IMG/VR virus record: IMGVR_UViG_3300037418_001250
Length of the DNA stretch: 20,000 nt
DNA from: an uncultured virus (IMG/VR IMGVR_UViG_3300037418_001250)
Lineage: Duplodnaviria; Heunggongvirae; Uroviricota; Caudoviricetes
Strand: one strand, 5' to 3'
In this document: one piece after another, positions 2,982 through 20,000 of the stretch
Layout: every line of letters begins with the position of its first letter
Position numbering within the stretch: the stretch's first letter is position 1
The notes under the pieces: generated by a model
What the model saw: only the letters and a program-made list of their open reading frames with translations
The model's database searches: none
What the model was told of the DNA's origin: nothing
Translations under genes and position numbers: made by a program

Positions 2982-4186
2982 GCGCCGTCACGGACCCAAG
3001 TGAGATCGCCGACCGGCTCGCGCACAACTCCAGCAGCGTCGATGACTGGCGTGTCAATCCCGGCGACTGGATCGCGCTCTCGCGCCGCGTCGAGTTTCAC
3101 CCCGTTGTCGGCTTTGGCCTCACAGCGAAACCCAACGACCCACGCCGAAACACCTACAGCCGCGGCGAGGCATGGCAGAGCCTTCTGTTTCTCGCCAACT
3201 TCAAGCCCGGCCGCGTCACCAATAAGGGCGTCGTGATGAGCCTCGACGTCGGTCAGCTCATTGGCGGCACGCACTTTCTGGCGCAGCGGTGGAACTGGTC
3301 GCGCGCCGCCGTCAGATGGTTTCTCGACACCCTTGAGCGGGAAGGAATGATTACGCGCGGCGGTGACAAAACCGGCGAATCAAACAGCCACCAAAATGCC
3401 GACGCCAGAAAGAACACCGCGAACGCTATAACCATCTCGAATTACACGAAATTTCAGCTTTTGGAAAATGAGCTTGACAGGTTCGTTACGAGCCTCAAAC
3501 AGCCACCGCACAACCACCGAGACGGCAAAATCGCAGCCACCGCAGCAGCCACCGAAACGGCCGCCGCAACAGCCACCGAGCCGTCTGGTAAAATGTCGAA
3601 AAAACAATCGTCTACGCTTCTGCCGAAGACCGCAACAGCCACCGACGCGGCCACCGCAACAGCCACCGACGCAACCACCGACGCGGCGATCCAGCAGCCA
3701 CAAAACACTGTATCTATTACTAAGAAAGAGGAAGGTTATTCCTCTTTGCCTCCTTCCCTTCCTACTACTGAAAATCTTCGTGTTGAGAGAGGGGTGCGGG
3801 GAGAGAGCAAAAACACTCCAGCGCCATCCAGCCCTTCGAGCAAAAAATCGGCGGCGCTGCATGGCACCCGGCTGGCGGCCGACTGGTTCCTGCCGCGCTC
3901 GTGGGGGCAGTGGGCGCTCGACAACTTCCGCTGCACCGAAACGCAGGTTCGGCTCGAAGCCGATAGCTTTGCCGCCTATTGGCAATCGAAGCCCGGCCCC
4001 CAGGCCAAGAAGCTCGACTGGCAACAGACGTGGCAGAATTGGTGCCGGAAGGCGTTCGCCAAGGTCGCCAAGCCGAGAAGCCTGTTCAATGACAAACCGG
4101 CGTCAGCGGCGAAGCCTGACCGCATGGCGGCCTACGACAAGGCCAATCTCGATGAGGGCATCGAGTTTCAGGGAGGCGGCGAATGA
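2978..4186 (+). CDS. Phage replication initiator (lambda O-like architecture, DnaT-like C-terminal domain)
   Basis: N-terminal HTH-like 'LAQRWNWSRAAVRWFLDTLEREGMI'; central low-complexity linker encoded by iterons; C-terminal 'GTRLAADW.LP....F.AYW....KLDWQQTWQNWCRK'; directly upstream of primase/helicase. Confidence 0.8.
   Translation: MSAVTDPSEIADRLAHNSSSVDDWRVNPGDWIALSRRVEFHPVVGFGLTAKPNDPRRNTYSRGEAWQSLLFLANFKPGRVTNKGVVMSLDVGQLIGGTHFLAQRWNWSRAAVRWFLDTLEREGMITRGGDKTGESNSHQNADARKNTANAITISNYTKFQLLENELDRFVTSLKQPPHNHRDGKIAATAAATETAAATATEPSGKMSKKQSSTLLPKTATATDAATATATDATTDAAIQQPQNTVSITKKEEGYSSLPPSLPTTENLRVERGVRGESKNTPAPSSPSSKKSAALHGTRLAADWFLPRSWGQWALDNFRCTETQVRLEADSFAAYWQSKPGPQAKKLDWQQTWQNWCRKAFAKVAKPRSLFNDKPASAAKPDRMAAYDKANLDEGIEFQGGGE
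3500..3780 (+). repeat. Iteron array plus AT-rich tract: putative replication origin inside the initiator gene
   Basis: CRRCCRCCG cores at 3500, 3511, 3534, 3546, 3558, 3570, 3636, 3648, 3660, 3672 (degenerate at 3385, 3695), followed by a visibly AT-rich stretch at about 3700-3780. Confidence 0.75.
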
Positions 4187-4782
4187 CCCGCTCCCTTTTC
4201 GACATTCTCGGTGAGTGGGGCGTCTACGGCATTCCCGACCGCATCGGCAAGCATCACACGACATGCCCTCGCTGCTCGAGCCAGCGCAAGAAAGCGAACC
4301 AGAAAAAGCGCGTGCTCGCCGTCTGGATCGGCCCCCGCAATGTTCGCTGCCACTGCATCCACTGCGGTTTCACCGACGCCGAATTTTTTGATGAAGGAAA
4401 GCCCGATGTTGCAAAAACTAAATCTAAATCCCGAGCACGCAACGTGGCTCGAAGAGGCGCGAAAAATCCCGAGCGAGCTGGCGGCGGAGATCGGCTTCGT
4501 GTCGCGCGGCCGGAACATAGCGTTCGAGTACCGCAAGAACGGCACGACGATGTTCCGCAAGGTCCGGTGCGAGACGAAGGACCCCGAGACGGGCAAGCGC
4601 GGCAAGACGTTTTTCATCGAACCGGCGGGCGCAAAGTTATTTCTATTCAACGAGGATTGCCTGAACGAGCCGTGCGCGCCGACGGTGCCGCTGATTATCT
4701 GCGAGGGCGAGATCGACGCCGCGTCGTGGATGCAGGCGGGCGCAACGCGCGTTGTGTCCGTGCCGAACGGCGCCCGCGCTGA
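4183..4782 (+). CDS. Primase-type zinc-binding domain protein (only the first ~75 aa look meaningful)
   Basis: ATGA overlap with initiator stop, SD GGAGG; 'TCPRCS...VLAVWI.....CHCIHCG' is a Cys4 Zn ribbon like T7 gp4/Twinkle ZBDs. The remainder overlaps the primase ORF in another frame. Confidence 0.7.
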   Translation: MTRSLFDILGEWGVYGIPDRIGKHHTTCPRCSSQRKKANQKKRVLAVWIGPRNVRCHCIHCGFTDAEFFDEGKPDVAKTKSKSRARNVARRGAKNPERAGGGDRLRVARPEHSVRVPQERHDDVPQGPVRDEGPRDGQARQDVFHRTGGRKVISIQRGLPERAVRADGAADYLRGRDRRRVVDAGGRNARCVRAERRPR

Positions 4783-5905
4783 GGTCGGCACCGACGACAT
4801 CGTGCCGGAGGAAGACACGGCGTTTTCCTATCTTTGGGAGGGCGGCCATCTCCGGCCGGAAATCGACCGGTTCCAGAAGATCATCATCGCCTCGGACGGC
4901 GATCGTGCAGGTCTTGCGCTGCGGGAAGAATTGTCGATCCGTCTTGGCCGTTCGAAGTGCTACGTCGTCACTTATCCCGACGGCTGCAAGGACGCCAACG
5001 ACGTTCTGCAGACCTTCGGCGAGCGTGGGCAAGATATGCTCATGGACATGATCGACCGGGCGATCCCGCTTGTCGCCGACAAGCTGATCCCCTTGATCGA
5101 TATTCCCGAGCGCGGTCCGAGGATCATCTATTCGGCCGGATGGGAAGGGCTCGACCCGCACTTCCGCGTCGTCATGCCGGAGCTGATCGTCGTCACCGGC
5201 CCGCCCGGTTCCGGCAAATCGCAATTCACGCTCTCCGTCTGCATGAACCTCGCGCGGCTGCACCACTTGAAAGGCGCAATTTTTCAGTTCGAGGACGATC
5301 CCGACCGCAACAAGCGGGACATTTTGAAATACGCGAAGTCGTGGGCGGTCGGCGCCGCTGACGGCAAGGGCGTCTACGTCGGCGAAGATTACCACGGCTG
5401 GGCAAGGCGCATGTTCTACGCCATATCGCCAGACGAAGACGACAACGCCGAGGTGACGTTCAATCTCGATTGGCTGTTTTCGACTATTCGCGAGGCGGTG
5501 GTCCGTCACGGCTGCAAGTGGGTATTGATCGATCCCTGGAATGAGATCGAGCACGTCTGGAAAATCAGCGAAAACGAGACCGGCTATACCAACAAGGCAT
5601 TGCGCGACATCAAGCGGCTGGCGCGGCAGCTCGGCATTGCAATTTTCATCGTCGCGCATCCCTCGAAAGCGGCCGACGGTAAGACCATCGACGAATTGAA
5701 CCTCTACCACGTCTCCGGCTCGTCAGCCTGGAAGAACAAGGCGGATCACGGCATCGTCGTCTTGCGTGACCCGGAAGACCCCGGCCAGACCTTCATCAAA
5801 ATCGACAAGTCGAAGGACTGGCAAAAGATGGGGGTGCCGGGAAAGGTCACGATGGAGTTCGTCCCCGAGCGCGCGTCGTTCAAGTTCGTGAAGGGCGGGA
5901 CGTGA
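4406..5905 (+). CDS. TOPRIM primase / SF4 helicase (T7 gp4/Twinkle-like)
   Basis: TOPRIM motifs IICEGEIDA, VSVPNGA, IASDGDRAG, KDANDVL; Walker A GPPGSGKS, Walker B VLIDPW, IVAHP, SGSSAWKNKAD. ATG 4406 preceded by AAGGAAAG. Confidence 0.92.
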   Translation: MLQKLNLNPEHATWLEEARKIPSELAAEIGFVSRGRNIAFEYRKNGTTMFRKVRCETKDPETGKRGKTFFIEPAGAKLFLFNEDCLNEPCAPTVPLIICEGEIDAASWMQAGATRVVSVPNGARAEVGTDDIVPEEDTAFSYLWEGGHLRPEIDRFQKIIIASDGDRAGLALREELSIRLGRSKCYVVTYPDGCKDANDVLQTFGERGQDMLMDMIDRAIPLVADKLIPLIDIPERGPRIIYSAGWEGLDPHFRVVMPELIVVTGPPGSGKSQFTLSVCMNLARLHHLKGAIFQFEDDPDRNKRDILKYAKSWAVGAADGKGVYVGEDYHGWARRMFYAISPDEDDNAEVTFNLDWLFSTIREAVVRHGCKWVLIDPWNEIEHVWKISENETGYTNKALRDIKRLARQLGIAIFIVAHPSKAADGKTIDELNLYHVSGSSAWKNKADHGIVVLRDPEDPGQTFIKIDKSKDWQKMGVPGKVTMEFVPERASFKFVKGGT

Positions 5906-5923
5906 GTTTTTGTGCGTGCAGCG

Positions 5924-5938
5924 TTTCTAAAACAGAAA
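5924..5938. promoter_or_regulatory. Operator-like palindrome TTTCT-AAAAC-AGAAA
   Basis: Intergenic, identical to 14635-14649. Confidence 0.65.
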
Positions 5939-5948
5939 GAGGCAAACT

Positions 5949-6239
5949 ATGATGGACGTTGAGAAACTCGCCAGCCGGATAGAAGGCAAATACATCGCCT
6001 GGGTCGTCGATGATGAACTTGTACCCAAGTTGATCGTCGCCGTTTTTTGCGCGTCGGAGAATATCGCAATAGCGGAGATCAAAACCTGCGGCGCCGATCA
6101 CTCCGACGTCGAAGAGATTGAATTGACCGGCGTCACGTTCTTCGACAGCGAAGCGGCGTGTCTGGCGCATTGCGACGAGCAAAACGCGATCGCTGATGCC
6201 GAGGAAGCTGAGGCTGCGGCCGGAAAGGCGGCAGCATGA
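5949..6239 (+). CDS. Acidic hypothetical protein (96 aa)
   Basis: SD AGAGG; ATGA overlap with ssb. Confidence 0.7.
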   Translation: MMDVEKLASRIEGKYIAWVVDDELVPKLIVAVFCASENIAIAEIKTCGADHSDVEEIELTGVTFFDSEAACLAHCDEQNAIADAEEAEAAAGKAAA

Positions 6240-6730
6240 ACCGGGTCACGCTCATTGGCTTCGTCGGTGCGGACCCTGAAATCCGCGCCGCCGGCAGCGG
6301 CAACAAGGTTGCCAACTTCAATCTCGCCACCTCGAAGCGCTGGAAGGACAAACAGACCGGCGAGCAGAAGGAAAAAACCGAGTGGCATCGGATCATCTGC
6401 TGGGGCGACGGGCTCGTCGACGTGATCGGCAGGTACGTCCGGAAGGGCTCGCAGCTTCTCGTTGAAGGCGAGCTGCAGACGCGCAAGTGGACCGACAAGC
6501 AGAACATCGAGCGCTACTCGACGGAAATCGTCGTGCAGGGCTTCGACGGTCAGGTCCGGCTTCTCGATCGCGATAACTCGACGAGGCCGCCAGCGCCGCA
6601 GCAGCCACCGCAGGGCGCCAATCTCGGCGGCTCGAGCGATCAGCACGCCAGCAACATGGTTCCGGCTTCGGCACCAAGCGACGGGCCGCCGGAATGGCAT
6701 TCGCAGGTCAACAGCGAAATCCCGTTCTGA
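6236..6730 (+). CDS. ssb: Single-stranded DNA-binding protein
   Basis: MNRVTLIG.VGADPEIR, EKTEWHRI, KGSQLLVEGELQTRKW, C-terminal tip EIPF. Confidence 0.97.
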   Translation: MNRVTLIGFVGADPEIRAAGSGNKVANFNLATSKRWKDKQTGEQKEKTEWHRIICWGDGLVDVIGRYVRKGSQLLVEGELQTRKWTDKQNIERYSTEIVVQGFDGQVRLLDRDNSTRPPAPQQPPQGANLGGSSDQHASNMVPASAPSDGPPEWHSQVNSEIPF

Positions 6731-6762
6731 GGAAAGTTCCGCCCGTGCTCGAAGAGGCCCAG

Positions 6763-7494
6763 ATGGCACCCGAACAGTTAAGCCCCGAAAAAGCACGGGC
6801 GAAACTCAACGCTCGCATGAAGCGGGACATGAAGCGTCCCGATTTGACGCAGGCGATGGCGCAGGAATACGCCAGCTTCAAATCGTGGATGAACAACGTC
6901 CGCGACATGGTGAAGGTTTCGAAGAAGAAGCCGAAGCCGCCGAAGCCCGAAACCGCAGCGGAGCGGCGGGCGCCGATGCTCAGGGCCAACGCCCGCGCCG
7001 CCGCTGAACTCGCCGGTCAGAACAAGCACTTGGTCAGCGTCGATCAGAACTATATCGACCTGCCGATGGTCGCCTTGAGCAAGGCGACGCCGAACCACGA
7101 AAAGCTCGCCTTCAATTGGCACCTGCAGGGCTTCATCGTGACGCTCGGCGCTGCCAGCCGATCACAACTCGGCGGCCGTGGCGCGCAAGTCCTCAATCTG
7201 ACGGATGAGCAGCGCGGCCACCTCGTCGCGATGTTCAACTACGTCAGCCAGAAACTCCCGCCCGAAGAACGGCAACTCTCCGACGTGTTGATCGAGCAGC
7301 ACTTGATGCTGACCGAACGGCCGATGACATACGACGAGTTCGGCCAGCTCTTGACGAGCGCCAACGACGAGCGGGTGAGGAAAGGCGGCTTCATCGGCGC
7401 CTGCCGCATGGTCTTCGCCGCCGTCCGTCACTACCAGCGCGAGTACCACATCGAGCAGGCGACGAAACGAATTGCAGCCAGGGGGCGGCAATGA
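6763..7494 (+). CDS. Hypothetical protein, possibly a transcriptional regulator
   Basis: ATG 6763 after AGAGG; basic N-terminus; ATGA overlap with the next gene. Function not recognised. Confidence 0.65.
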   Translation: MAPEQLSPEKARAKLNARMKRDMKRPDLTQAMAQEYASFKSWMNNVRDMVKVSKKKPKPPKPETAAERRAPMLRANARAAAELAGQNKHLVSVDQNYIDLPMVALSKATPNHEKLAFNWHLQGFIVTLGAASRSQLGGRGAQVLNLTDEQRGHLVAMFNYVSQKLPPEERQLSDVLIEQHLMLTERPMTYDEFGQLLTSANDERVRKGGFIGACRMVFAAVRHYQREYHIEQATKRIAARGRQ

Positions 7495-7673
7495 GCTGGG
7501 GTGAATTGCAAAAAGCCAACGGCCGCGTCGCGTGCCGCTGCCGGTCGTGCGGCCGAGAGATCGTCGTCGAGCCGAAGAAGATTTTGTCGATCAGTGGCGA
7601 GGCGTCGCTTTCCGAAGCGCTCGCGCTTTTGACGTGCCGCGTTTGCGGCACCCGGACGATAGAGGCGAAGTGA
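7491..7673 (+). CDS. Small Zn-ribbon protein
   Basis: CRSC...CRVC pairs in 60 aa; translationally coupled. Confidence 0.7.
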   Translation: MSWGELQKANGRVACRCRSCGREIVVEPKKILSISGEASLSEALALLTCRVCGTRTIEAK

Positions 7674-7674
7674 C

Positions 7675-8043
7675 ATGGGCGGAGAAAGACAGCGGCTGCC
7701 GGATCGGCGCGGCGGCGAAGTTTTGGAGGTCTACGCCGGAACGGCGGAAATCGGCATCAGCAAATGGATCGTCACGGTCGGCCGCCGTGGCAGGCTCGGG
7801 CTCGGGGAGGTCGCGGAAGTGTTTATCGCCTCCGGCAAGTCCGGCACCGACGTCAACATCATGGCCTTGGAGCTTGGCATTCTCGCCTCGCTCTGCCTGC
7901 AACACGGCGTCACCGCCGAGACCATCCGGCACGCCATGCCGCGCGATGACCAAGGCCGGCCGCAAGGCGTCATCGGCGAGCTGTTCGACGAATTGCAACG
8001 AGGCGAGAGGCGGAATTTCAAAGGGGTGGAGCAAACTGCATGA
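7675..8043 (+). CDS. Stand-alone TSCPD-domain protein (resembles C-terminal part of class II ribonucleotide reductase)
   Basis: 'RQRLPDRR...VTVG....EVFIASGKSGT......LGILASLCLQHGV..E.I' pattern. Confidence 0.75.
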   Translation: MGGERQRLPDRRGGEVLEVYAGTAEIGISKWIVTVGRRGRLGLGEVAEVFIASGKSGTDVNIMALELGILASLCLQHGVTAETIRHAMPRDDQGRPQGVIGELFDELQRGERRNFKGVEQTA

Positions 8044-8309
8044 AACGGGAAAACATCAAGGGTCTCGTCGATGAACGGCTGGCGGCCATCGGCTGCCCGT
8101 TGAGCAACCGCAACGTCAAGATCGTGCCGTCGCGGACCCGCATCGAGGTCGCCGTCGGTGATCGGCGGATGGTCATGGAGTTCAATTCGGGCCTCCCCGA
8201 GTGCGAGGTCAGATCGAAGATCGCCGACTTCGAGCGCCGGTACTTGGACTGCAAAAATCAGGTCGACCTCGAAGAGGCGATCGGCGACGTACTGGCGGCG
8301 GGGGAGTGA
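8040..8309 (+). CDS. Hypothetical protein (89 aa)
   Basis: ATGA overlap, SD GGAG, fits the operon. Confidence 0.7.
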   Translation: MKRENIKGLVDERLAAIGCPLSNRNVKIVPSRTRIEVAVGDRRMVMEFNSGLPECEVRSKIADFERRYLDCKNQVDLEEAIGDVLAAGE

Positions 8310-8314
8310 GGGCG

Positions 8315-8734
8315 ATGTGGCTTCAATTCATCGGCGTGCAGTGCTGCAATTGCGGCATACACTTTGGCCTTGAGAGCAGCCATCACGCGCTGCTCAAGCG
8401 GGACGGCGAGTGGTTTCATTGTCCGAACGGCCACAAGCAGCGCTATAGCGGCAATACCGAAAAGGAACAGTTGCGCCGCGAGCGCGACCAGCTCAGGCAG
8501 CGGCTTGCTCAGGTGGATGATCGCAATCGCGAGCTTCGCGATGCACGCGACGCCGCCGAGCGCCGCGTTGCGGCCGCCAAGGGGCAGATCACAAAACTCA
8601 AGAAGCGCGCCTCGGCCGGCACCTGCCCGTGCTGCAACCGGACGTTCCAGCAGCTCGCCGCGCACATGAAGCAGAAGCATCCCGATTTCGGCCCCAAGGT
8701 TGTCGATTTGGATGCGGCCAGGGGGAGAGCGTAA
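8315..8734 (+). CDS. Zn-binding / coiled-coil / C2H2-type finger protein
   Basis: ATG 8315; CCNC...CPNGH, heptad-rich centre, CPCC...H....H. Confidence 0.75.
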   Translation: MWLQFIGVQCCNCGIHFGLESSHHALLKRDGEWFHCPNGHKQRYSGNTEKEQLRRERDQLRQRLAQVDDRNRELRDARDAAERRVAAAKGQITKLKKRASAGTCPCCNRTFQQLAAHMKQKHPDFGPKVVDLDAARGRA

Positions 8735-8738
8735 GACG

Positions 8739-9143
8739 ATGGACGGTTTTGCAGATCAGCTCGACGTCTTCCGCCGCCACATGACGGAGGACGCCCACTA
8801 CCAGCTCGCGCAATTGCAGCAGCTCGACGCCGCTCTGAGCGAAGTCGATCAGCAGCTTTTGGATTATCTCAACGGCATGTTCCGCCGTCACGGCGAACGC
8901 CGCAGCGGCCTTATCATGCGGCTCGTCGAAGAGGCGCGGCGGTATGAGCTTCCGAGCTATCCTGAGAAACAAGGCGAAGAACGCCCAGGCGTGGCTCAGG
9001 GCGGCAATCTTGCGCGGCCGCGGTTTCTGGGAGGGGGAGAAATGCAGGAGGCGCCAGCGGCCCAGGACGGGGCGGCTGACGCGCCTGAGAATTGGGAAGG
9101 GTATCGCGGCCCCTACGAGGGCTGGCGGGTGCCGCATCAATAA
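8739..9143 (+). CDS. Hypothetical coiled-coil protein
   Basis: ATG 8739 after GGGGAG; last rightward gene before the terminator. Confidence 0.65.
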   Translation: MDGFADQLDVFRRHMTEDAHYQLAQLQQLDAALSEVDQQLLDYLNGMFRRHGERRSGLIMRLVEEARRYELPSYPEKQGEERPGVAQGGNLARPRFLGGGEMQEAPAAQDGAADAPENWEGYRGPYEGWRVPHQ

Positions 9144-9186
9144 AAATAGGGCGGCTTCCTGACCCGAATCAGAAAGCCGCCCCTTT
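9143..9186 (-). terminator. Intrinsic terminator between convergent operons (best on minus strand)
   Basis: Minus strand: GGGCGGCUUUCUGA-UUCGGG-UCAGGAAGCCGCCC (14-bp stem, one G-U; 9149-9182) then UAUUUUU; plus strand has one mismatch and CTTT. Confidence 0.85.
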
Positions 9187-9220
9187 GAACATCACAGCGG
9201 CCGGACTGGAGAGAACGGCG

Positions 9221-9436
9221 TCAGTGACGTTGCTCCTTATGTAGGGGCGTCCATAGCTCGTGTCCATCATCCATCGTCAGGACTTCCCAGGTTTTCCCGC
9301 CGCGGGTGACGTGCTGGACGGGCGGCCGCGAGCGCCACTCATCGAGCATTTTATCGCGCTGGCGAACCCGGATACTCGAGGCGATGGTCTGCGCGATGAT
9401 CGCGATGAGAAAGACCGCCAGAGCTTCGCCGATCAT
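9221..9436 (-). CDS. Small protein with N-terminal TM segment
   Basis: MIGEALAVFLIAIIAQTIA; ATGA overlap with upstream gene. Confidence 0.7.
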   Translation of the reverse strand: MIGEALAVFLIAIIAQTIASSIRVRQRDKMLDEWRSRPPVQHVTRGGKTWEVLTMDDGHELWTPLHKEQRH

Positions 9437-9744
9437 GGCTCGACCTTCTCCGAATATCGAGGGAGGAATCCCGCCATCAGCTTGCCGGTGCGGCGGTCGA
9501 TGTGGCGCCGGATGCCGAAGACGTCATGACTGAAATCGAAGTCGCCGGCATAGAGCAAGGCCCTGAGCGCCAAGGGGTTGCCGTTGCAGTGAACCGCCGT
9601 GATGTCCATCGCCAGCGAGACGCCGTCGATGGTGACGTCGGCTTCCTTGGCGAGCTTCAAGCTGCGTCGCACGATCATCCGGATCAGGATGCGATCTTCC
9701 GGCGTGACGTCGAAATTGACTTTGGCTTTCGCATTCATCTTCAT
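9433..9744 (-). CDS. DUF6874-like phage protein
   Basis: 'MDITAVHCNGNPL.L..LL.A.DFDFSHDVFGIRRHIDRRTGKL...FLPRY' recognised family pattern. Confidence 0.75.
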   Translation of the reverse strand: MKMNAKAKVNFDVTPEDRILIRMIVRRSLKLAKEADVTIDGVSLAMDITAVHCNGNPLALRALLYAGDFDFSHDVFGIRRHIDRRTGKLMAGFLPRYSEKVEP

Positions 9745-10235
9745 CCGTACACCACGTCCTTCAAGGTTACGAGTTGCAGGAAGACGTCGGCGGTGATGGC
9801 GTCGTCGTTCTCGGCCATGAAGTCGCCGAAGTGGCGGGCGTGTTTTTCCGCCATGAGCTTGAGCCCGGCGTCGAGTTCGGCGCGGGTGACGCGGTGGCGC
9901 TTGAGGTTGTCTTCGCTCTTTTTCAGGTTGAAGTATTCCGCCTCATCTTCGATCTCGTAGACGTCGACGGCGAAGTCGGATGATGCCCAAAGCCGCGCAT
10001 CGTTGTACCAGACAGTATTCGCCTCGAAGCCTTCCCAATCATCGTCGTCGATGCGCTGACCCTCGATGACGGCGTGACGGAAGCGGATGCCGCCGCACCA
10101 CGATCGCGTCATGTGGTTGCATTCGATGGCGTTGACGAAAAGATCGGCGATGCGTTCGGCCGGAATTTCGACCTTGGTGGCGATGATGAAGACGTCGGGT
10201 TTTTGTTCGGTACTTTCGATGGTTTCGGTCGTCAT
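9741..10235 (-). CDS. Acidic phage hypothetical protein (164 aa)
   Basis: Start placed at ATG 10235 by the GACTGGAGA motif; C-terminal 'DAITADVFLQL....DVVYG'. Confidence 0.75.
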   Translation of the reverse strand: MTTETIESTEQKPDVFIIATKVEIPAERIADLFVNAIECNHMTRSWCGGIRFRHAVIEGQRIDDDDWEGFEANTVWYNDARLWASSDFAVDVYEIEDEAEYFNLKKSEDNLKRHRVTRAELDAGLKLMAEKHARHFGDFMAENDDAITADVFLQLVTLKDVVYG

Positions 10236-10240
10236 GGCTT

Positions 10241-10263
10241 TCTCCAGTCTCAGGGTTAGAATT
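10241..10263 (-). repeat. Start-associated motif copy 1
   Basis: Minus: AAATTC-TAA-CCCTG-AGACTGGAGA-AAGCC-ATG. Confidence 0.85.
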
Positions 10264-10525
10264 TCTCGCGCGCAATGCACTCGCAGAGGTCGATGGCGAA
10301 CTGCATCATGTCGTTGTCCCGCATAATCCGGGCCTCAAGCACGATGGCTGAGACGACGAAGCCCTTTGCGGTTGAGAGCTTTTTCGCGATAAGGCGGCGC
10401 TCGTACTGGTTTCCCTGCACCCACTTGTTCAGCCAGTAGCGGGCGCGCGTTTCTCGCCGTTCGAGCCGCTTTTGCCGTTGGCTCGGCGGCTCCGCCGTAA
10501 TGTTTTCGGCCAGAAGGGAGGTCAT
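10256..10525 (-). CDS. Basic hypothetical protein (89 aa)
   Basis: SD GGAGG upstream; stop TAA is part of the motif. Confidence 0.7.
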   Translation of the reverse strand: MTSLLAENITAEPPSQRQKRLERRETRARYWLNKWVQGNQYERRLIAKKLSTAKGFVVSAIVLEARIMRDNDMMQFAIDLCECIAREKF

Positions 10526-10528
10526 GGC

Positions 10529-10936
10529 TCAGTATTCCTCCGCCAGCATGATCGTCAGCACGCGGGTTGTTTGCTTCGGGTCGGCTGGATCGTTGCCGCC
10601 GAACTCGAGTTTTTTGTCGTAGTAATCTATTCGCCAATAATAGCGGCCATCTTCAAAGTCGAAGGCCCCAAACTCTGCTTCGAAATACGGGTCGTTGTCG
10701 GCCGTGAACTCCTTGTAGTTACGGACCCTCCTTACGATCTCATGGCGCTTCCCGAACGGAAGAGTTGAGACGCCGTGACTGAATACAATGCGACCTCCGA
10801 TTAACGTCTCGCGAAAGCGGTTGTTGAGGGCGCGGATTTTCTTGGTTCGCGCGTCGGCAAATTCCTTGACGTTTTGCGCGTGCCGTTCGACCAAATAGGC
10901 TTGCTCGGCGGGGCCGCGATCTTCGTGGGGCTGCAT
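10529..10936 (-). CDS. DUF3768-like protein
   Basis: 'IRALNNRFR...F.ADNDPY.E.EFGAF......YWRIDYYD......DPADP..TTRVLTIMLAEEY'. Confidence 0.88.
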   Translation of the reverse strand: MQPHEDRGPAEQAYLVERHAQNVKEFADARTKKIRALNNRFRETLIGGRIVFSHGVSTLPFGKRHEIVRRVRNYKEFTADNDPYFEAEFGAFDFEDGRYYWRIDYYDKKLEFGGNDPADPKQTTRVLTIMLAEEY

Positions 10937-10941
10937 GATGG

Positions 10942-10971
10942 TCTCCAGTCTCGGGTTGCGGGTTAGAATTT
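10942..10971 (-). repeat. Start-associated motif copy 2
   Basis: Minus: AAATTC-TAA-CCCGC-AACCCG-AGACTGGAGA-CCATC-ATG. Confidence 0.85.
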
Positions 10972-11157
10972 GAAATCTTTGAGCCAGGACGGCCCAAAGT
11001 CATTTCGGAGCTGCCGCACGGCTGGGATATGTTCAGGGCGGAAGTCTGCCGCGCCGCCCTCCCAAACTCGGCGCATGTGCGTCTTCCACCGACGGCCGTA
11101 GCGGTCGACAAATGCGCCGATTGCGAGGATTTGTTCGTCGGTAAGTTTGCGTTCCAT
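10963..11157 (-). CDS. Hypothetical protein (64 aa)
   Basis: MERKLTDEQ...YGRRWK...LRNDFGPSWL; start after GGGAG. Confidence 0.7.
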   Translation of the reverse strand: MERKLTDEQILAIGAFVDRYGRRWKTHMRRVWEGGAADFRPEHIPAVRQLRNDFGPSWLKDFKF

Positions 11158-11159
11158 GC

Positions 11160-11510
11160 TCACGCGCGCTCCCTGGCCTGACGTTTCTCGATCTTGTCGA
11201 CGGCGCGAAAGATTTCTTCTTGCGATAGCCTCCAGCCGCGCTCCTGCGGCAGCCGCGCGACGACGACCCACTTGAATTGCTGGTAGAGCCGGAGCGCCAC
11301 GTCCTTGTCGCCGTAGGCGTCAGCGAGCAGCGCGAGGCTGAGCTGCGCTGGGCCGCTTCCGCCGTAGCCCCAATTGAAACCGTCGGGCGAATGGTTGACG
11401 AGGTCGCTGCGCGGGTTGAGCGGATAGAAGCGTCCCGTTGGCAGGTGGACGGAAACGTCCCGCCGTCCGAACGGGGTTTCGCCGCGGTAGGTTTTGAGCG
11501 CCTGGATCAT
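11160..11510 (-). CDS. DUF6166-like protein
   Basis: 'NHSPDGFNWGYGGSGPAQLSLALL.......A..LYQQFK'. Confidence 0.85.
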   Translation of the reverse strand: MIQALKTYRGETPFGRRDVSVHLPTGRFYPLNPRSDLVNHSPDGFNWGYGGSGPAQLSLALLADAYGDKDVALRLYQQFKWVVVARLPQERGWRLSQEEIFRAVDKIEKRQARERA

Positions 11511-12994
11511 TCTGCGGCCTCCTTGACGTCGGCGGCAGCGCGCTTTTTGAGCGCGTCGAGCTTGCTGGTGAGGTCTGGATGCACGTCGAGCTTTTCCTGC
11601 CCGCGCGTCGCCGCGACGTAGAACAGCATCAGCTCATCTGTCGGGATCGGCTTCTCGCCTTTCTCGGGGTCTTCCTTTTTCGAGACGCCGATCAGGAAGT
11701 CTTCGCAAAGCTTGACCTCGCCCCACTCGCGGCCCTTCGACTTGTGCCCTGTAGAAAGCACGACGTCGGCTTTCTTCTCGTCTTTGGGCAGGCCCTCGAA
11801 GGCATCCTTCAAGGCGTCGACGCCGTATTTCTCGACGAGGTTGACCCAGCCCGAAAGCTCCCGGTTGTCTTCGTCCTGCGCGGCGATCCTGACCTCGGCC
11901 CAATTTTTGTAGCCGAAGAACATCAGCGGATTGTCGACGGTCATGCCCGCCTGCAGCTTTTCGGTGGCGTCCAGGAGCGTCAGCATTTCGGCAACGCCAC
12001 CGACGATGAACGGCCGCTTGCCGGCTTCGAGCTGGCCGACAAGCTCTTCGATCAGCCGGGCGTTGGTGCGGGCGAGGATCGCCCGCGGGTTTGCGATGAT
12101 CTCCAGACTATCTGTCTTCTCCGGGTTGCCGGTCAGCGGCAGAGTTTCGCCGAGCATCGCAAGAATGCCGGTCGCGAAGCCCGCGATATTCGGGCCGAAG
12201 CGGAATGAGGTCGACAGCCGCCGTTCGATCTCGGTCGGCAATTCGACCATCGCGTTCATCGCCCCGCGCCACCTGTAGATCGATTGCCACTTGTCGCCGA
12301 CGGTGATGAGTTGCGCCCCTTGGTGCCGCATCAATTCCATGACGACGCCGTTGGTGTCCTGCGCCTCATCGAGCAGGATGAAGTCGCCGTCGATTTGCGG
12401 CTTTTCCATCGCCCACATTTTGAGATAGCCGTCGTGCGTCATCGGCAGCTTCGACGCCGGGTCGATCATTTGCGCCCAGAGCTGTTCGCCGTTGCGGACG
12501 ATGTCTTTCCTGAGCCCGAGCAGCAGGGGCGCCGCGAGCTTCGTCAGCTTGCCTTCGATGTGGCAGTGACGGAGCGTGATCTGATCGTCGCCGGAGCGCA
12601 TGAACTTCTGCACCGCTTCGAGCACGAGGCGGCCGTAGCTCCGTTCGGAAATGAAGAGGTCGTCGCCGTAGTCGCGCTTCCTGTAGCCGAGCTTCATCGC
12701 AATGAAGCCGCCGTTGAGGTTGCCGGTCATCTTGTCCATGCCGAAGCCGCGCTTGATGATCGAGCGGAAGGCGAGCGAGTGCATGGTCGAGCAATTGATC
12801 GTTCGCGGGAATTTCGACTTGGCTTCTTCCGCGATCGATTTGTTGAAGGCGACGTAGGTGCCGCGCCGGTCGGTGGCGTTGGCGAGAAGCTTCAAGGTCG
12901 ACGTCTTACCGGTTCCGGCATAGGCGTTAATGCGCAACTTCTTTCCGGTTTGGAAAGCTTCAACGCAAGCGGATTGCTGTGGTGTCGGCTGCAT
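11507..12994 (-). CDS. UvrD/Rep-like SF1 helicase
   Basis: AYAGTGKT, LDEAQD, VGDKWQSIYRWRGA, LSTSFRFG, ILARTN, STGHKSKGREW, FYVAATR. Confidence 0.95.
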   Translation of the reverse strand: MQPTPQQSACVEAFQTGKKLRINAYAGTGKTSTLKLLANATDRRGTYVAFNKSIAEEAKSKFPRTINCSTMHSLAFRSIIKRGFGMDKMTGNLNGGFIAMKLGYRKRDYGDDLFISERSYGRLVLEAVQKFMRSGDDQITLRHCHIEGKLTKLAAPLLLGLRKDIVRNGEQLWAQMIDPASKLPMTHDGYLKMWAMEKPQIDGDFILLDEAQDTNGVVMELMRHQGAQLITVGDKWQSIYRWRGAMNAMVELPTEIERRLSTSFRFGPNIAGFATGILAMLGETLPLTGNPEKTDSLEIIANPRAILARTNARLIEELVGQLEAGKRPFIVGGVAEMLTLLDATEKLQAGMTVDNPLMFFGYKNWAEVRIAAQDEDNRELSGWVNLVEKYGVDALKDAFEGLPKDEKKADVVLSTGHKSKGREWGEVKLCEDFLIGVSKKEDPEKGEKPIPTDELMLFYVAATRGQEKLDVHPDLTSKLDALKKRAAADVKEAAE

Positions 12995-13045
12995 GGCTCG
13001 GTGGCCCCTCTGTTTAGGTTGAAGACGTGAGCGTTAGCTTGTCCA

Positions 13046-13249
13046 TTACGCATCCTCGCGCATCGACAGGCCTGCTTCCAAAATGCCGACGACGATCGGA
13101 TCGAGGTAACGCGGCTCGATGGCGACGGCGCCGCCGATCCACATGACGTCGGGCGGCAAGTTCTCGTGGACCCAATCGATCGCGTCCGCCGTCAATGGCG
13201 CGAGCGTGACGATGGAGCCGTGGTAGGTGGCTTCGAAGTCTTTCGGCAT
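13046..13249 (-). CDS. Hypothetical protein (67 aa)
   Basis: SD GGAGG; fits the operon. Confidence 0.7.
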   Translation of the reverse strand: MPKDFEATYHGSIVTLAPLTADAIDWVHENLPPDVMWIGGAVAIEPRYLDPIVVGILEAGLSMREDA

Positions 13250-13252
13250 CGC

Positions 13253-13570
13253 TCAGCCCTCCCGTTTCATGGCGGCGAGAGCTTCGGCGGAGCCGCGCGG
13301 GTAAAGGCCGCCCTTGTCCATCCAGGTGCGAACTTTATCGGGTGAGCCCCAGCACTCGGACGGCGCATGGCGGTAGAGAAACTTCACGTAGTCGACGATA
13401 TGGTTGATGTTGGTGTCGTCGGCGTTCTGGCAGGACCGCTTGAGATCGTTTTCGAGGACTGCACTCAGGAACGAACCGACCGAGCGTCCAAGCTCAATGT
13501 AGCGGCGAAGTCCGGCGCGGCAGTGCTCGGGAATGAGTGACCAATCGGCGGTTTCAAAATCGTAAGGCAT
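13253..13570 (-). CDS. Phage hypothetical protein (105 aa)
   Basis: 'L.RYIE.G...GSFL.AVLENDL...AD..N....LY..AP..CWGS'; preceded by the motif. Confidence 0.8.
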   Translation of the reverse strand: MPYDFETADWSLIPEHCRAGLRRYIELGRSVGSFLSAVLENDLKRSCQNADDTNINHIVDYVKFLYRHAPSECWGSPDKVRTWMDKGGLYPRGSAEALAAMKREG

Positions 13571-13577
13571 TGTGAGG

Positions 13578-13603
13578 TCTCCAGTCTCGTTTCGGGTTGA
13601 AGA
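13578..13603 (-). repeat. Start-associated motif copy 3
   Basis: Minus: TGA-TCTTC-AACCCG-AAACG-AGACTGGAGA-CCTCACA-ATG. Confidence 0.85.
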
Positions 13604-14506
13604 TCAGGCGGCAAGGTCGAAGAGGTCGGCGAGCGTCGCTTGCTCGCGTGGCACCTTCGGCATTTTGTTGGGACGCGCGAACGCTGGCGGCGGAATGTTG
13701 CAGCCGAGCACGGCGGCGCTGTCGATCGCGGCCTTGATGGCCTTGTTCTGCAGCCGCGCGAGCCGCTTGGCGCGCTTTTCATCGAAGGCGCCGGAGGCCC
13801 AGAAAAGCGGCTGGCCGCCTTCGTTCCAGACGCGGCCGAAGCTCTCGACTTTGCACTTCGGCTCAATGAAGCCGTTGAAGTAGGTCAGGGCATCCTTGAC
13901 GGTCTCGAAGCGGCAGCACCGCTTCTCGTTATCGACCTCGAAGGCATAGACGTGGCCGTCGATGCAATGGCGCACGTCGTATTTGTCGGAGCGGACCGAG
14001 GGGCGAAACTCGCGCCAGTTCCAGCGGTCGTTTTTGCGGATCGAGAGCGGAATGTCGATCTGGTTGGCGTAACGTGGTAATGCCCGCTTGGCGAGTTCGA
14101 CGCCTTCGAGCCAATCCTGCCCGTCGCCGTCGCTCGATACCGAAAAGCCCTTGCCGTCGGCACTGATGCTTTCGAGATAGGCGAGGATCGCGACGACGGC
14201 GAGGTCGTAGGGTTTTTGCGCCGTCTTGCAGAAGGCCCAGCCGAGCCGGCCGGGCGTTTGGTAGTCTTCGAGGCGACGCACGCGCTCGATGTAGAAGGTC
14301 TCGTGCCCGTCGTCGCCGATGCCGTTGAAGCGGATTTTGTCGCCGGTCACTTCCGGCTGCGTGCCAGCTTCGTCCCATTCGGCGGCGAGCGCGACGCCCT
14401 GGACGTGCTGCACGTCCTTGAGGATCAGGCGAACGTCGCGGCAGAGTTCATCCCATTCGTCGCCGGTGAAGTCCCGCAATTGCGTCCAGTAATGCGTATA
14501 GCCCAT
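13604..14506 (-). CDS. Hypothetical protein (300 aa) starting MGYTHYW
   Basis: Start set at ATG 14506 by the motif; contains HETF, FCKT..KPYD, VSSDG..DW. Confidence 0.8.
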   Translation of the reverse strand: MGYTHYWTQLRDFTGDEWDELCRDVRLILKDVQHVQGVALAAEWDEAGTQPEVTGDKIRFNGIGDDGHETFYIERVRRLEDYQTPGRLGWAFCKTAQKPYDLAVVAILAYLESISADGKGFSVSSDGDGQDWLEGVELAKRALPRYANQIDIPLSIRKNDRWNWREFRPSVRSDKYDVRHCIDGHVYAFEVDNEKRCCRFETVKDALTYFNGFIEPKCKVESFGRVWNEGGQPLFWASGAFDEKRAKRLARLQNKAIKAAIDSAAVLGCNIPPPAFARPNKMPKVPREQATLADLFDLAA

Positions 14507-14514
14507 AATCGAGG

Positions 14515-14533
14515 TCTCCAGTCTCATCGGGTT
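14515..14533 (-). repeat. Start-associated motif copy 4
   Basis: Minus: AACCCG-ATG-AGACTGGAGA-CCTCGATT-ATG; a hairpin (14541-14560) lies just upstream. Confidence 0.85.
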
Positions 14534-14605
14534 GAAAGGTCCGGGGCATTCGCGCCCCGGCAGTTGACCGCCCGTCCTTTGCGTGTGGAGGAAGCGCGGC
14601 GGTAG

Positions 14606-14649
14606 TTTCGAAAAGCGAAAGTTCAAGTCTGAACTTTCTAAAACAGAAA
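14606..14649. promoter_or_regulatory. Two operator-like palindromes around a probable leftward promoter
   Basis: TTTCG-AAAAG-CGAAA (14606-14620) and TTTCT-AAAAC-AGAAA (14635-14649); minus-strand TTGAAC lies between them. Confidence 0.65.
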
Positions 14650-14651
14650 GG

Positions 14652-14855
14652 CTAGAGCGAAACAAAAACCGAGCGGATGCACTTGTGGAAATAGCCGCCG
14701 GCACTCTTGGCGCTCTTGAGCCCGCGAAAAACCTCTTCCGGGACGTCCTGGTAGGTCGTGGCGTGGCCCGAGTTGAAGGTGATCGTCAGATGTTTTTTCT
14801 TCGGGTCGTAGGTCGCATACTTGAGCGCGGCGCTTTCAAATTCAGCGGTCAGCAT
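14652..14855 (-). CDS. KTSC-domain protein
   Basis: 'SAALKYATYD....LTITFNSG....YQDVPEEVFRGL..AKSAGGYFHKCIR'. Confidence 0.9.
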   Translation of the reverse strand: MLTAEFESAALKYATYDPKKKHLTITFNSGHATTYQDVPEEVFRGLKSAKSAGGYFHKCIRSVFVSL

Positions 14856-14857
14856 GG

Positions 14858-15064
14858 TCAAAGCTCCATTTGTTGCCAGTGATCCCGCAGCACTTCGGCG
14901 TGCCAATACTGCGGGGTTTCTTCGATCAGCACGCCGGTCTCGGGTTCAAGCGGGTCGCGGACAAAGACGCCAAAATGCGTCGGCTCATTCCATTCGTTGC
15001 GGATAAGATCGATCCAGACGTCGACGCGACCGCGGCCGTCGGGGCCGAGGTAAATTCCCGGCAT
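14858..15064 (-). CDS. Hypothetical protein (68 aa)
   Basis: MPGIYLGPDG..; TGATG coupling at 15064. Confidence 0.65.
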   Translation of the reverse strand: MPGIYLGPDGRGRVDVWIDLIRNEWNEPTHFGVFVRDPLEPETGVLIEETPQYWHAEVLRDHWQQMEL

Positions 15065-15363: not shown

Positions 15364-15400
15364 CGGGTTCTCCAGTCTTCGGGTTTCGGGTTACTCGGGT
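15364..15400 (-). repeat. Start-associated motif copy 5 with four ACCCG units
   Basis: Minus: ACCCGAG-TAA-CCCGA-AACCCGA-AGACTGGAG-AACCCG-ATG. Confidence 0.85.
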
Positions 15401-15627: not shown

Positions 15628-15906
15628 GGTCGTTTCTCCAGTCTTCGGGTTAGTCGCGGTCGCGTTGCTGGCGCGGGCTTCGAGGACGCCGACAATGGCG
15701 GCACCCCTGAACCATGCAGGGAAGTCGTCACCCCACTTGCGCGCCGTTCTGAGATAGGCGCGGGCGGCGGTTTCAGATTTGAAGGGAAAGAAAAAATCGC
15801 GAGCTGCGGTTCGCGTTCTGAATTTGGCGGGCACGCCGCTCCAGCAAGAGCCGGTGCGGTCGATGATCGTGCCGTCGGTCAGACGAATTGCGAATTGAGC
15901 TTCCAT
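15391..15906 (-). CDS. 171-aa ORF: 93-aa N-terminal module read in frame through the motif into the 78-aa protein
   Basis: ATG 15906 has its own shortened motif (AACCCG-GAGA-CCAGCCAC-ATG, 15915-15924); no in-frame stop before 15391. Confidence 0.55.
   Translation of the reverse strand: MEAQFAIRLTDGTIIDRTGSCWSGVPAKFRTRTAARDFFFPFKSETAARAYLRTARKWGDDFPAWFRGAAIVGVLEARASNATATNPKTGETTMPKKLPPDPENMNDDRASWAEVALQAFMDETGTDPEDAISDLIADLKHLCDRKGDVYGDADAMIARGQRCYEEEILPE
15635..15652 (-). repeat. Start-associated motif copy 6
   Basis: Minus: TAA-CCCGA-AGACTGGAGA-AACGACC-ATG. Confidence 0.85.
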
Positions 15907-19979: not shown

Positions 19980-20000
19980 CGTCGTTTCTCCAGTCGTTTT

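What the first reader, a model, noticed from the sequence alone, without database searches (positions are those of the whole stretch)
9149..9220. The 3' UTR and terminator of the leftward array carry the antisense of the start motif: candidate built-in sRNA feedback
Seen: the only reverse-orientation copy I found of the core, GACTGGAGA on + at 9204-9212, lies between the last leftward stop (9221) and the terminator, so the leftward RNA ends ...GUUCUCUCCAGUC... The terminator loop region (9162-9168) reads UUCGGGU on that RNA, complementary to the ACCCGAA part of motif copies 3, 5 and 6. Both halves occur in the order needed for antiparallel pairing. On + the copy serves no gene (next GTG at 9224 closes after 6 codons). 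Inference: a 3'-UTR-derived small RNA of about 75 nt could occlude the ribosome-binding sites of all motif-bearing genes at once, a one-to-many shut-off for the accessory operon. Caveats: the seed is only 9 nt and UUCG loops are common.
Basis: inference. Interest (0 to 1): 0.8.

Follow-up and report, generated by a model that had tools for sequence, protein, structure and literature searches.

The report
Anti-start-motif hairpin in phage 3'UTR
A small RNA hairpin at the tail of a phage operon, also found in two unrelated phages, displays the exact mirror image of the signal that precedes seven of the phage's genes, so it may dampen them together, but no RNA data test this yet.

Summary
The core observation holds. 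GACTGGAGA occurs 7 times on the minus strand, each 5-8 nt before an ATG. It occurs once inverted, at 9204-9212, between the last leftward stop (9221-9223) and a strong leftward terminator (9183-9148). About 0.05 plus-strand copies are expected by chance in 20 kb.

The second half of the claim, UUCGGGU in the terminator loop, does not hold. It is at chance level, mostly base-paired, and changed in a natural variant.

New evidence:
- The inverted copy is the 12-nt loop (UUCUCUCCAGUC on the leftward RNA) of a small hairpin, 9200-9219.
- In a co-occurring strain variant, 12 changes hit the flanking 32 nt and none hit this 21-nt block.
- The same loop sits on different, compensating stems in two IMG/VR phage contigs that share no genes with the window. 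One of them has the same stop-hairpin-terminator layout.

The element is therefore a real, undescribed structured RNA. Pairing of its loop with the start motifs, giving OppZ- or icaR-like feedback, is the best-supported mechanism (about 0.45), but it remains inference:
- No RNA run holds this DNA.
- The two other phage fragments lack the 9-mer start motif.
- Predicted binding energies favour motif genes only moderately.
- Cluster K mycobacteriophages show that such start motifs persist without an antisense partner.

The parts
9200..9219 (-). HP1: small hairpin. Stem 9200-9203 pairs with 9216-9219 (GCCG/CGGC). The 12-nt loop 9204-9215 reads UUCUCUCCAGUC on the leftward RNA.
   Evidence: Folds. 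The 21-nt block 9199-9219 is unchanged in variant contig X3 record 3, while 12 changes fall in its flanks. The same loop sits on other stems in L224 and L230.
9204..9212 (-). Nine-base antisense of the start motif (UCUCCAGUC on the leftward RNA; GACTGGAGA on +).
   Evidence: Mean unpaired probability 0.71.
9184..9199 (-). Variable single-stranded linker between HP1 and the terminator.
   Evidence: Unpaired. Six of the variant's changes fall here.
9138..9183 (-). Intrinsic terminator of the leftward unit: 16-pair stem-loop 9183-9148 followed by a U tract.
   Evidence: The stems are unchanged in the variant; one loop base is deleted.
9221..9436 (-). Last leftward gene (71 aa, no family hit). Its ATG overlaps the upstream stop (ATGA).
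   Evidence: By my hand reading of the differences, the variant keeps the frame and changes the stop codon type.
10241..10249 (-). Start-motif copy, 5 nt before the ATG at 10235.
10942..10950 (-). Start-motif copy, 5 nt before the ATG at 10936 (DUF3768 gene).
13578..13586 (-). Start-motif copy, 7 nt before the ATG at 13570.
14515..14523 (-). Start-motif copy, 8 nt before the ATG at 14506.
15369..15377 (-). Start-motif copy, 5 nt before the ATG at 15363.
15635..15643 (-). Start-motif copy, 7 nt before the ATG at 15627.
19987..19995 (-). Start-motif copy, 7 nt before the ATG at 19979. It lies in the upstream transcription unit, which ends at the terminator 16322-16302.

Best explanation
The inverted motif copy is the loop of a small conserved RNA hairpin (HP1, 9200-9219) in the 3'UTR of the leftward replication/accessory operon. 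It lies one base after the last stop codon and 16 nt before that operon's intrinsic terminator. On the leftward RNA the 12-nt loop reads UUCUCUCCAGUC. Nine of its bases are exactly complementary to GACUGGAGA, the Shine-Dalgarno-containing start-associated motif 5-8 nt upstream of seven leftward ATGs. Neighbouring bases add up to about 7 more pairs.

The most likely mechanism is RNA-RNA pairing between this loop and those ribosome-binding sites. The loop would act either as the 3' end of the polycistronic mRNA itself or as a processed 3'UTR fragment of about 75-80 nt. Pairing would occlude the sites and give a dose-linked, one-to-many dampening of the motif genes.

Shown: the sequence, its position, the structure, its conservation and the complementarity. 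Inferred: transcription through HP1, accumulation of a small RNA, pairing in vivo, and the sign of the effect.
For: 1. The exact inverted 9-mer is far above chance: 0.05 expected on + in 20 kb, 0.0002 in this gap.
2. All 7 of 7 minus-strand copies are 5-8 nt before an ATG, so the target is an RBS element.
3. The layout is stop - HP1 - linker - terminator with a U tract, all on the minus strand. The seed is mostly unpaired, 0.71.
4. Variant contig X3 record 3 covers 9138-10297. It has 12 changes in 9184-9236 and none in 9199-9219. The chance of an unchanged run of 21 or more covering the core is 0.005, and of any such run 0.011. One change, 9220 G>C, lengthens the stem to 5 bp.
5. The identical 12-nt loop sits on different stems in two IMG/VR contigs: 9 bp in L224, 7 bp in L230. 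84% of 25 cells pair, against 24-48% when the partners are slid, and 3 of 9 pairs change on both sides. A covariance model scores the three at 46-47 bits; the next hit in 795,297 bases scores 21.9.
6. These contigs share nothing else with the window: blastn finds only the 21-mer, and there is no protein hit at E<=1e-5.
7. Strand evidence. L230's contig has a minus-strand stop, HP1 12 nt later, then a 9-pair terminator with tail GCTTTTCTTT. L224's extended stem uses G-U pairs, giving -48.3 kcal/mol (z -5.2) on the minus strand against -38.4 (z -3.0) on the plus strand.
8. Predicted binding favours motif TIRs: -9.1 to -14.5 kcal/mol against a background of -7.8 +/- 2.9. Mann-Whitney p=0.013 against the 25 other TIRs and 0.0018 against the 12 other leftward TIRs.
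9. No + strand ORF is served, either in the window or, by my hand reading, in the variant.
Against: - Nothing here shows that the RNA exists or acts.
- The two other phages with HP1 carry no other copy of the 9-mer: 1 copy in 25,709 nt and 1 in 27,254 nt, the loop itself in each. These fragments are only 9% and 52% complete. Partial matches before ATGs are few: ACTGGAG 4 times in one, GACTGGA once in the other, with no excess in count. The loop's conservation across phages is therefore not explained by this phage's start motif alone.
- Specificity is modest. Three + strand TIRs without the motif (8700, 7675, 1432) score better than any motif TIR. Plain duplex energies do not separate motif genes at all.
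- In the analogous SAS system, Unicorn plus five further Cluster K phages keep 12-18 forward SAS copies with no reverse copy at <=1 mismatch (the five) and a drifted loop. So such motifs do not need an antisense partner.
- The family has only three members plus one variant.
- One motif gene (19979) lies in a different transcription unit from HP1.
Confidence: 0.45

Rival explanations
1. HP1 is a structured 3'-end element read by a protein, or used for 3'-end formation or stability (for example a loop-specific RNA-binding protein, or a processing or protection signal). Its complementarity to the start motif has no regulatory consequence.
For: - The loop is invariant in three phages that share no genes, and two of them lack the 9-mer start motif in the sequence available. 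That fits a target outside this phage's own RBSs.
- HP1 always sits close to a stop codon or a transcript end.
Against: - A 9-nt exact complement between a conserved loop and a 7-copy RBS motif in the same genome is very unlikely to be coincidence.
- No candidate protein is known.
- The loop is C/U-rich with a CUCC core, as in RBS-targeting RNAs (recalled, not tested).
Confidence: 0.2
2. The plus-strand RNA is the active one. Read-through from the rightward operon displays GACUGGAGAGAA in a hairpin loop, as a mimic or decoy of the start motif. The decoy would titrate whatever recognises that motif, whether the 30S subunit or a protein.
For: - The + side of the terminator has only CUUUGAA after the stem, so rightward read-through is plausible.
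- In L224 the hairpin lies 8 nt after the stop of a + strand trypsin-like peptidase gene with GC3 0.86.
Against: - In L230's contig the neighbouring genes and the terminator are on the minus strand.
- L224's extended stem is about 10 kcal/mol better on the minus strand because of G-U pairs.
- In the window a rightward RNA ending at the big hairpin would not contain HP1.
Confidence: 0.12
3. A DNA-level site or a relic. The copy is either an inverted remnant of a former gene start, or an orientation-dependent DNA site like the stoperators of Cluster A mycobacteriophages, placed to act on rightward read-through. It has no RNA-pairing role.
For: - The + strand block resembles a whole start-motif copy beyond the core: CCG..GACTGGAGA..AACG, as in the copies at 15635 and 19987. 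That suggests common descent.
- The passages I read in PMC3203893 contrast SAS with the L5 stoperators, which regulate transcription. That stoperators are orientation-dependent is recalled.
Against: - The block is kept intact in a diverged variant.
- The stems covary while the loop is fixed, the opposite of a protein-bound inverted repeat.
- It is not part of a longer inverted repeat.
- The fixed 5-8 nt spacing to the ATG and the GGAG core place the motif's function at the RBS.
Confidence: 0.1
4. Pure coincidence in a GC-rich genome.
For: A 9-nt seed is short. The terminator-loop half of the claim is indeed at chance level.
Against: - Only 0.05 copies are expected per 20 kb, and 0.0002 in this gap.
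- The block is conserved in the variant, and the hairpin recurs in two other phages.
Confidence: 0.02

Closest known systems
OppZ and CarZ, autoregulatory 3'UTR-derived sRNAs of Vibrio cholerae (PMC7398697; abstract and outline read)
   Same: The regulator lies in the 3'UTR of an operon and shares its terminator. It base-pairs with its own operon's transcript to inhibit translation, giving negative feedback.
   Different: - Those are chromosomal, RNase E-processed, Hfq-associated RNAs with experimental proof.
- Here the element is in a phage, and its seed sits in a hairpin loop.
- It would hit up to seven cistrons through a shared start motif.
- Nothing is tested experimentally.
icaR 3'UTR-5'UTR pairing in Staphylococcus aureus (PMC3868564; search listing only, title and start of abstract; details recalled)
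   Same: A C-rich anti-Shine-Dalgarno stretch in a 3'UTR pairs with the RBS of the same mRNA.
   Different: That case is one gene and one site on a monocistronic mRNA. Here the mRNA is polycistronic, several RBSs share an extended motif, and the hairpin is conserved across phages.
Start-associated sequences (SAS) of Cluster K mycobacteriophages (PMC3203893; passages read)
   Same: - An asymmetric repeat contains the SD core and lies a few nt before mostly ATG starts of non-structural genes.
- It occurs in one orientation, with a single unexplained reverse copy in K1 phages.
- In Anaya I find that reverse copy in the 10-nt loop of a hairpin in a conserved, strongly folding intergenic region. 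This parallels HP1.
   Different: - The sequence differs (GGGATAGGAGCCC), as does the host phylum.
- The reverse copy there follows a terminator and a promoter-like TTGnCG...TAGACT, so it is not in a 3'UTR before a terminator.
- Several Cluster K phages keep SAS without it.
sRNAs that target RBSs with C/U-rich hairpin loops, such as the staphylococcal UCCC-loop sRNAs and the alphaproteobacterial CcsR / 'cuckoo' and AbcR RNAs (recalled from memory, no call)
   Same: A pyrimidine-rich anti-SD sequence is displayed in a hairpin loop next to a terminator.
   Different: The loop sequences differ. Those are stand-alone or host 3'UTR RNAs. There is no Rfam match here.

Membership tests
3'UTR-derived autoregulatory sRNA (OppZ/CarZ type) | Lies between the last stop codon and the operon's own intrinsic terminator | tested here: met
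   Stop at 9221-9223, HP1 at 9200-9219, terminator 9183-9148 plus U tract.
3'UTR-derived autoregulatory sRNA (OppZ/CarZ type) | Seed complementary to the translation initiation region of a cistron of the same operon | tested here: met
   An exact 9-nt complement to 7 TIRs, 6 of them downstream of the internal terminator at 16322-16302. Predicted binding is -9.1 to -14.5 kcal/mol. This is in silico only.
3'UTR-derived autoregulatory sRNA (OppZ/CarZ type) | A discrete stable small RNA released by processing (RNase E) and bound by Hfq | not testable with these tools
   No RNA run is available for this DNA.
3'UTR-derived autoregulatory sRNA (OppZ/CarZ type) | Represses its own operon's genes | not testable with these tools
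   Needs reporters or infection experiments.
icaR-type 3'UTR anti-SD element acting in cis | C-rich anti-SD stretch in the 3'UTR complementary to an SD on the same mRNA | tested here: met
   The loop contains CUCUCC, complementary to the GGAGA of the motif. That both lie on one transcript is inferred from the absence of terminator-like sites between 16302 and 9183 stronger than those listed.
Start-associated sequences (Cluster K SAS) | Asymmetric repeat with an SD core 3-8 nt before start codons, mostly ATG, in one orientation | tested here: met
   7 of 7 minus-strand copies are 5-8 nt before an ATG.
Start-associated sequences (Cluster K SAS) | Consensus GGGATAGGAGCCC, found in Cluster K mycobacteriophages | tested here: not met
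   The motif here is GACTGGAGA. No near relative exists in GenBank phages. It is an analogue, not a member.
Rfam ar7 (alphaproteobacterial sRNA) | Score at or above the gathering threshold of 60 bits | tested here: not met
   26.9 bits, driven by the terminator-like hairpin. Its third hairpin falls in the antisense of the rightward gene.
Intrinsic (Rho-independent) terminator | GC-rich stem-loop followed by a U tract on the transcribed strand | tested here: met
   16 pairs, 9 of them G-C, tail AUUUUUAUUG on the minus strand. The + side has only CUUUGAA.

The most novel reading that the evidence does not exclude
HP1 defines a previously undescribed family of phage 'anti-RBS' hairpins with an invariant loop, UUCUCUCCAGUC, that ride at operon 3' ends in unrelated soil and rhizosphere phages. 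In this phage a start-associated motif has been recruited as, or has co-evolved into, its docking site. That gives a built-in, one-to-many post-transcriptional feedback on seven genes.

More generally, SAS-type start motifs, unexplained since 2011, would be docking sites for phage-encoded antisense loops. The single reverse SAS of K1 mycobacteriophages would be a second case.
Probability: 0.25. Interest if true: 0.85.

Novelty: new variant of a known kind. Interest (0 to 1): 0.68.

Why it matters
Regulation by 3'UTRs and 3'UTR-derived RNAs is established in bacteria but barely explored in phages. The function of start-associated motifs in phage genomes has been open since they were described in Cluster K mycobacteriophages. 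[quoted passage not shown]

This window offers a concrete, testable candidate for the RNA option. The candidate is a conserved hairpin whose loop is the exact antisense of the motif. It sits where its dose would track the operon's own transcription.

If the pairing is real, it would be a compact way for a phage to cap the output of a set of accessory and replication genes with about 20 nt of sequence. It would also make a useful orthogonal regulatory part. The culturable K1 mycobacteriophages offer a place to test the principle.

Tried and rejected
- **Relatives by protein in IMG/VR.** Five queries (71-aa gene, last rightward gene, DUF6874, helicase, DUF2786/DUF7168) gave no relative except L015, at 48% identity. 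L015 has no repeated start motif.
- **Relatives by the 17-mer AACCCGAAGACTGGAGA.** All were single matches, and no locus had more than 2 copies of the 9-mer. These are chance hits.
- **GenBank phages.** No DNA similarity beyond 4% of the query. Best protein identities were 36% and 32%. A 37-nt query around HP1 gave only coding-region hits with E>=0.5.
- **RNA evidence.** No RNA holder is listed among the 7 runs.
- **Variation at motif copies.** The one read-laying run covered only 8900-11000, so variation at motif copies beyond 10942 is unseen.
- **Unavailable sources.** The window's own genome is not held.
- **Rfam.** Nothing at gathering thresholds in the whole window. A weak ar7 hit was rejected. 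No tRNA.
- **A + strand gene for the copy.** Rejected: there is no start codon 5-8 nt downstream, and the GTG ORF is 6 codons long.
- **A longer inverted repeat or invertible segment.** Rejected: the copy is not among the 25 longest of 136 inverted pairs.
- **Plain duplexfold ranking.** It does not discriminate in this GC-rich DNA.
- **Accessibility-corrected ranking.** Motif TIRs took ranks 1, 2, 3, 5, 7 and 10 of 31. It mis-scored the seventh (15363, rank 25), because the list of suboptimal duplexes did not contain the seed duplex. I rely on the cofold result instead.
- **HP1 in bacteria.** The 14-mer gave 3 hits in 401 genomes of the order of G003. None had a stem, and the backward-read controls gave 10.
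- **A second weak model hit in L226** (9634-9670, 21.9 bits, E 0.03) was looked at but not pursued.
- **Promoter or terminator consensus near L224's hairpin.** None found.
- **Cluster K RNA-seq literature.** Searches found nothing usable. The ZoeJ RNA-seq paper that I recall was not among the listed results.

Full report
**What the window is.**
The window is 60.6% G+C and has two convergent gene arrays.
- Rightward genes, 1-9143, include a GcrA-like regulator, a DnaD-like replication initiator, a Toprim/DnaB primase-helicase and SSB.
- Leftward genes, 9221-20000, include a UvrD-like helicase, a 5'-3' exonuclease and many DUF or unknown proteins.
- No close relative exists among GenBank phages.
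- The DNA is held by rhizosphere and soil metagenome runs.
- It is a phage or prophage-like replication/accessory region. Its host is probably an alphaproteobacterium; this is inferred from GcrA only.

**The start motif is real.**
- GACTGGAGA occurs 8 times exactly: 7 times on the minus strand and once on the plus strand.
- Every minus-strand copy lies 5-8 nt before an ATG.
- It supplies the GGAG Shine-Dalgarno core. It is usually preceded by (T)AACCCGA(A), in which the TAA is often the stop codon of the upstream gene.
- It is the equal-top 9-mer of the window, tied at 8 with CAGCCACCG.
- It is an analogue of the start-associated sequences (SAS) of Cluster K mycobacteriophages, whose function is still unknown (PMC3203893, passages).

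**The inverted copy.**
It lies between the leftward stop at 9221-9223 and the best terminator of the window (minus strand 9183->9148, 16 pairs, U tract).
- A Markov model expects 0.05 plus-strand copies in 20 kb, and 0.0002 in this 77-nt gap.
- No plus-strand gene uses it.
- It is not part of a longer inverted repeat.

This is the UUCGGGU in the terminator loop, paired with ACCCGAA.
- The plus strand has three ACCCGAA copies, which is chance level.
- Most of the heptamer is paired in the terminator.
- It lies 35 nt from the seed, whereas in the targets the two parts are 0-4 nt apart.
- A natural variant deletes one of its bases.
- The extra pairs that do exist come from the bases directly flanking the seed: CGG after it, and GUU/CG before it with a one-base bulge (structures).

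**New evidence 1: it is a hairpin loop.**
- On the leftward RNA, GCCG (9219-9216) and CGGC (9203-9200) form a stem. The loop is the 12-mer UUCUCUCCAGUC.
- The mean unpaired probability of the nine seed bases is 0.71.

**New evidence 2: microdiversity.**
- One run (X3) holds both a window-like contig and a variant contig (record 3, 1208 nt) that covers 9138-10297.
- Right of 9237 the variant differs at one base in about 1060.
- Within 9184-9236 it has 6 substitutions and 6 indels.
- None of the 12 falls in 9199-9219, which is HP1 plus one base. The terminator stems are also intact.
- With 12 changes placed at random in 53 positions, an unchanged run of 21 or more covering the core has probability 0.005. 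Any such run has probability 0.011.
- One change (9220 G>C) adds a fifth base pair to the stem.
- By my hand reading, the 71-aa ORF stays in frame, with four of its last five residues changed and a different stop codon. That argues that the ORF is a real gene and that HP1 begins right after it.

**New evidence 3: the hairpin is a family.**
- An exact 18-mer from HP1 hits one IMG/VR contig (L224).
- A 16-mer hits five places. Two of them are hairpins with the identical 12-nt loop on different stems: GGCCCGCCG/CGGCGGGCC in L224 and CCGGGCG/CGCCCGG in L230.
- The other three hits are AT-rich and have no stem, so I take them as chance.
- Across the three sequences, 84% of 25 pair cells are standard pairs, against 24-48% when the partners are slid. 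Three of 9 pairs change on both sides.
- A covariance model scores the three at 45.9-46.8 bits. The next best hit in 795,297 bases scores 21.9 bits.
- The three contigs share nothing else: blastn finds only the 21-mer, and no ORF pair reaches E<=1e-5.

**Which strand.**
- In L230's contig a minus-strand gene (GC3 0.88) stops 12 nt before HP1. Six nt after HP1 comes a 9-pair terminator with tail GCTTTTCTTT, all on the minus strand. This is the window's architecture repeated.
- In L224 the hairpin is 8 nt after the stop of a plus-strand trypsin-like peptidase gene. The 257 nt to the contig end show no coding signal. Taken alone that points to the plus strand.
- However, L224's extended stem contains G-U pairs that are C-A mismatches on the other strand: -48.3 kcal/mol (z -5.2) on the minus strand against -38.4 (z -3.0) on the plus strand.
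- I read all three as RNAs whose loop is UUCUCUCCAGUC, with L224 the least certain.

**Does the loop find the motif genes?**
- With a partition-function dimer model, the 78-nt 3'UTR binds the seven motif TIRs at -9.1 to -14.5 kcal/mol.
- 150 random 100-nt windows of the same strand give -7.8 +/- 2.9, with a 5th percentile of -13.1.
- Motif TIRs rank 4, 6, 7, 8, 10, 14 and 17 of 32. Mann-Whitney p=0.013 against all 25 other TIRs, and 0.0018 against the 12 other leftward TIRs.
- Three rightward TIRs without the motif score better.

**What speaks against the feedback model.**
- There is no expression evidence.
- The two other HP1 phages have no further copy of the 9-mer in 25.7 kb (9% complete) and 27.3 kb (52% complete).
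- I saw only short matches before ATGs there, ACTGGAG four times and GACTGGA once, with no excess over expectation.
- An invariant loop in phages that share no genes suggests a target set by the host or by a common factor, not only by this phage's own RBSs.

**The Cluster K parallel cuts both ways.**
- In Anaya it is 1 of 17 matches, at L212 44871-44883. It lies in the gp96-gp97 intergenic region, downstream of a terminator and of a conserved TTGnCG...TAGACT promoter-like element.
- It forms the 10-nt loop of a hairpin in a region that folds at z -4.9.
- Five of 11 aligned Cluster K phages keep the loop CCTCCTATCCC exactly.
- Unicorn keeps 12 exact SAS copies but has a drifted loop, with 9 of 13 positions still antisense.
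- SirPhilip, Nibb, Ekdilam, Shandong1 and Mdavu have 13-18 forward copies and no reverse copy at <=1 mismatch. SirPhilip and Nibb have unrelated loops.
- So antisense-in-a-loop recurs, but start motifs clearly persist without it.

**Verdict.**
- The element is real, structured, conserved and undescribed. Rfam has no family for it. I found no paper on an antisense partner for SAS-type motifs in the searches; the library lacks many subscription journals.
- Loop-to-RBS pairing, with OppZ/CarZ-like or icaR-like feedback, is the best-supported mechanism at about 0.45.
- The main rivals are a protein-read or 3'-end element (0.2), a plus-strand decoy (0.12), and a DNA-level site or relic (0.1).

Noticed in passing
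window 3500-3668 (+), inside the DnaD-like initiator gene 2978-4186: CAGCCACCG occurs six times in 170 nt (3500, 3534, 3546, 3570, 3636, 3660). These look like iterons, so this is probably the replication origin inside the initiator gene, as in lambdoid phages (gene annotation).
   Followed up: no
window 15950-16100 (-): An AT-rich intergenic stretch with direct repeats TTGTTGCATT(T/G)GTT lies upstream of the second leftward unit. It is likely a promoter/operator region. It follows an internal terminator at 16322-16302.
   Followed up: no
window 15391-15906 (-): The motif copy at 15635-15643 and its ATG at 15627 lie in frame inside a 171-aa ORF that starts at 15906. That start has a degenerate motif (AACCCGGAGACC). 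A terminator-like site sits at 15815-15798. This may be an internal start, a leader/attenuator, or an over-long ORF call. The PHROG hit covers only the 78-aa version.
   Followed up: partly
window 9085-9237, run X3: Two strains coexist in one sample. They are nearly identical right of 9237 and strongly diverged to the left. The 30 letters shown of the unaligned part before 9138 match window about 9098-9127 at 27 of 30 by my eye. This is a mosaic junction inside the C-terminus of the 71-aa gene.
   Followed up: partly
window: starts at 9436, 10525, 12994, 13249 (-): A second, weaker start context, (C/T)GAGC(C/G)ATG, recurs at four leftward genes that lack the main motif.
   Followed up: no
L212 44716-45066 (Mycobacterium phage Anaya, record about 59715-60065) and alignment A1: The gp96-gp97 intergenic region is conserved in 182 Cluster K records. 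It has an invariant TAGACT -10-like box and strong predicted structure, and in K1 phages it carries the single reverse SAS in a hairpin loop. It is a candidate non-coding RNA or structured 5'UTR. Some records annotate ORFs over it.
   Followed up: partly
IMG/VR contig of L224/L226/L227 (25,709 nt): Very abundant short repeats occur in this contig: TTAACCTTAA 26 copies, ATTCCTTAACAA 20 copies. One lies directly after a second, weak HP1-like hairpin at L226 9634-9670. Their function is unknown.
   Followed up: no
window 810-1463 (+): A GcrA-like cell-cycle regulator gene (Pfam PF07750, E 1e-26) is carried by the phage. This hints at an alphaproteobacterial host and at host cell-cycle manipulation.
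   Followed up: no
window 9101-9232 (-): A sub-threshold Rfam match to the alphaproteobacterial sRNA ar7: 26.9 bits against gathering 60, E 0.0012 for the 301-nt search. The 5' single-stranded part and the U-tailed hairpin align, but the rest does not.
   Followed up: partly
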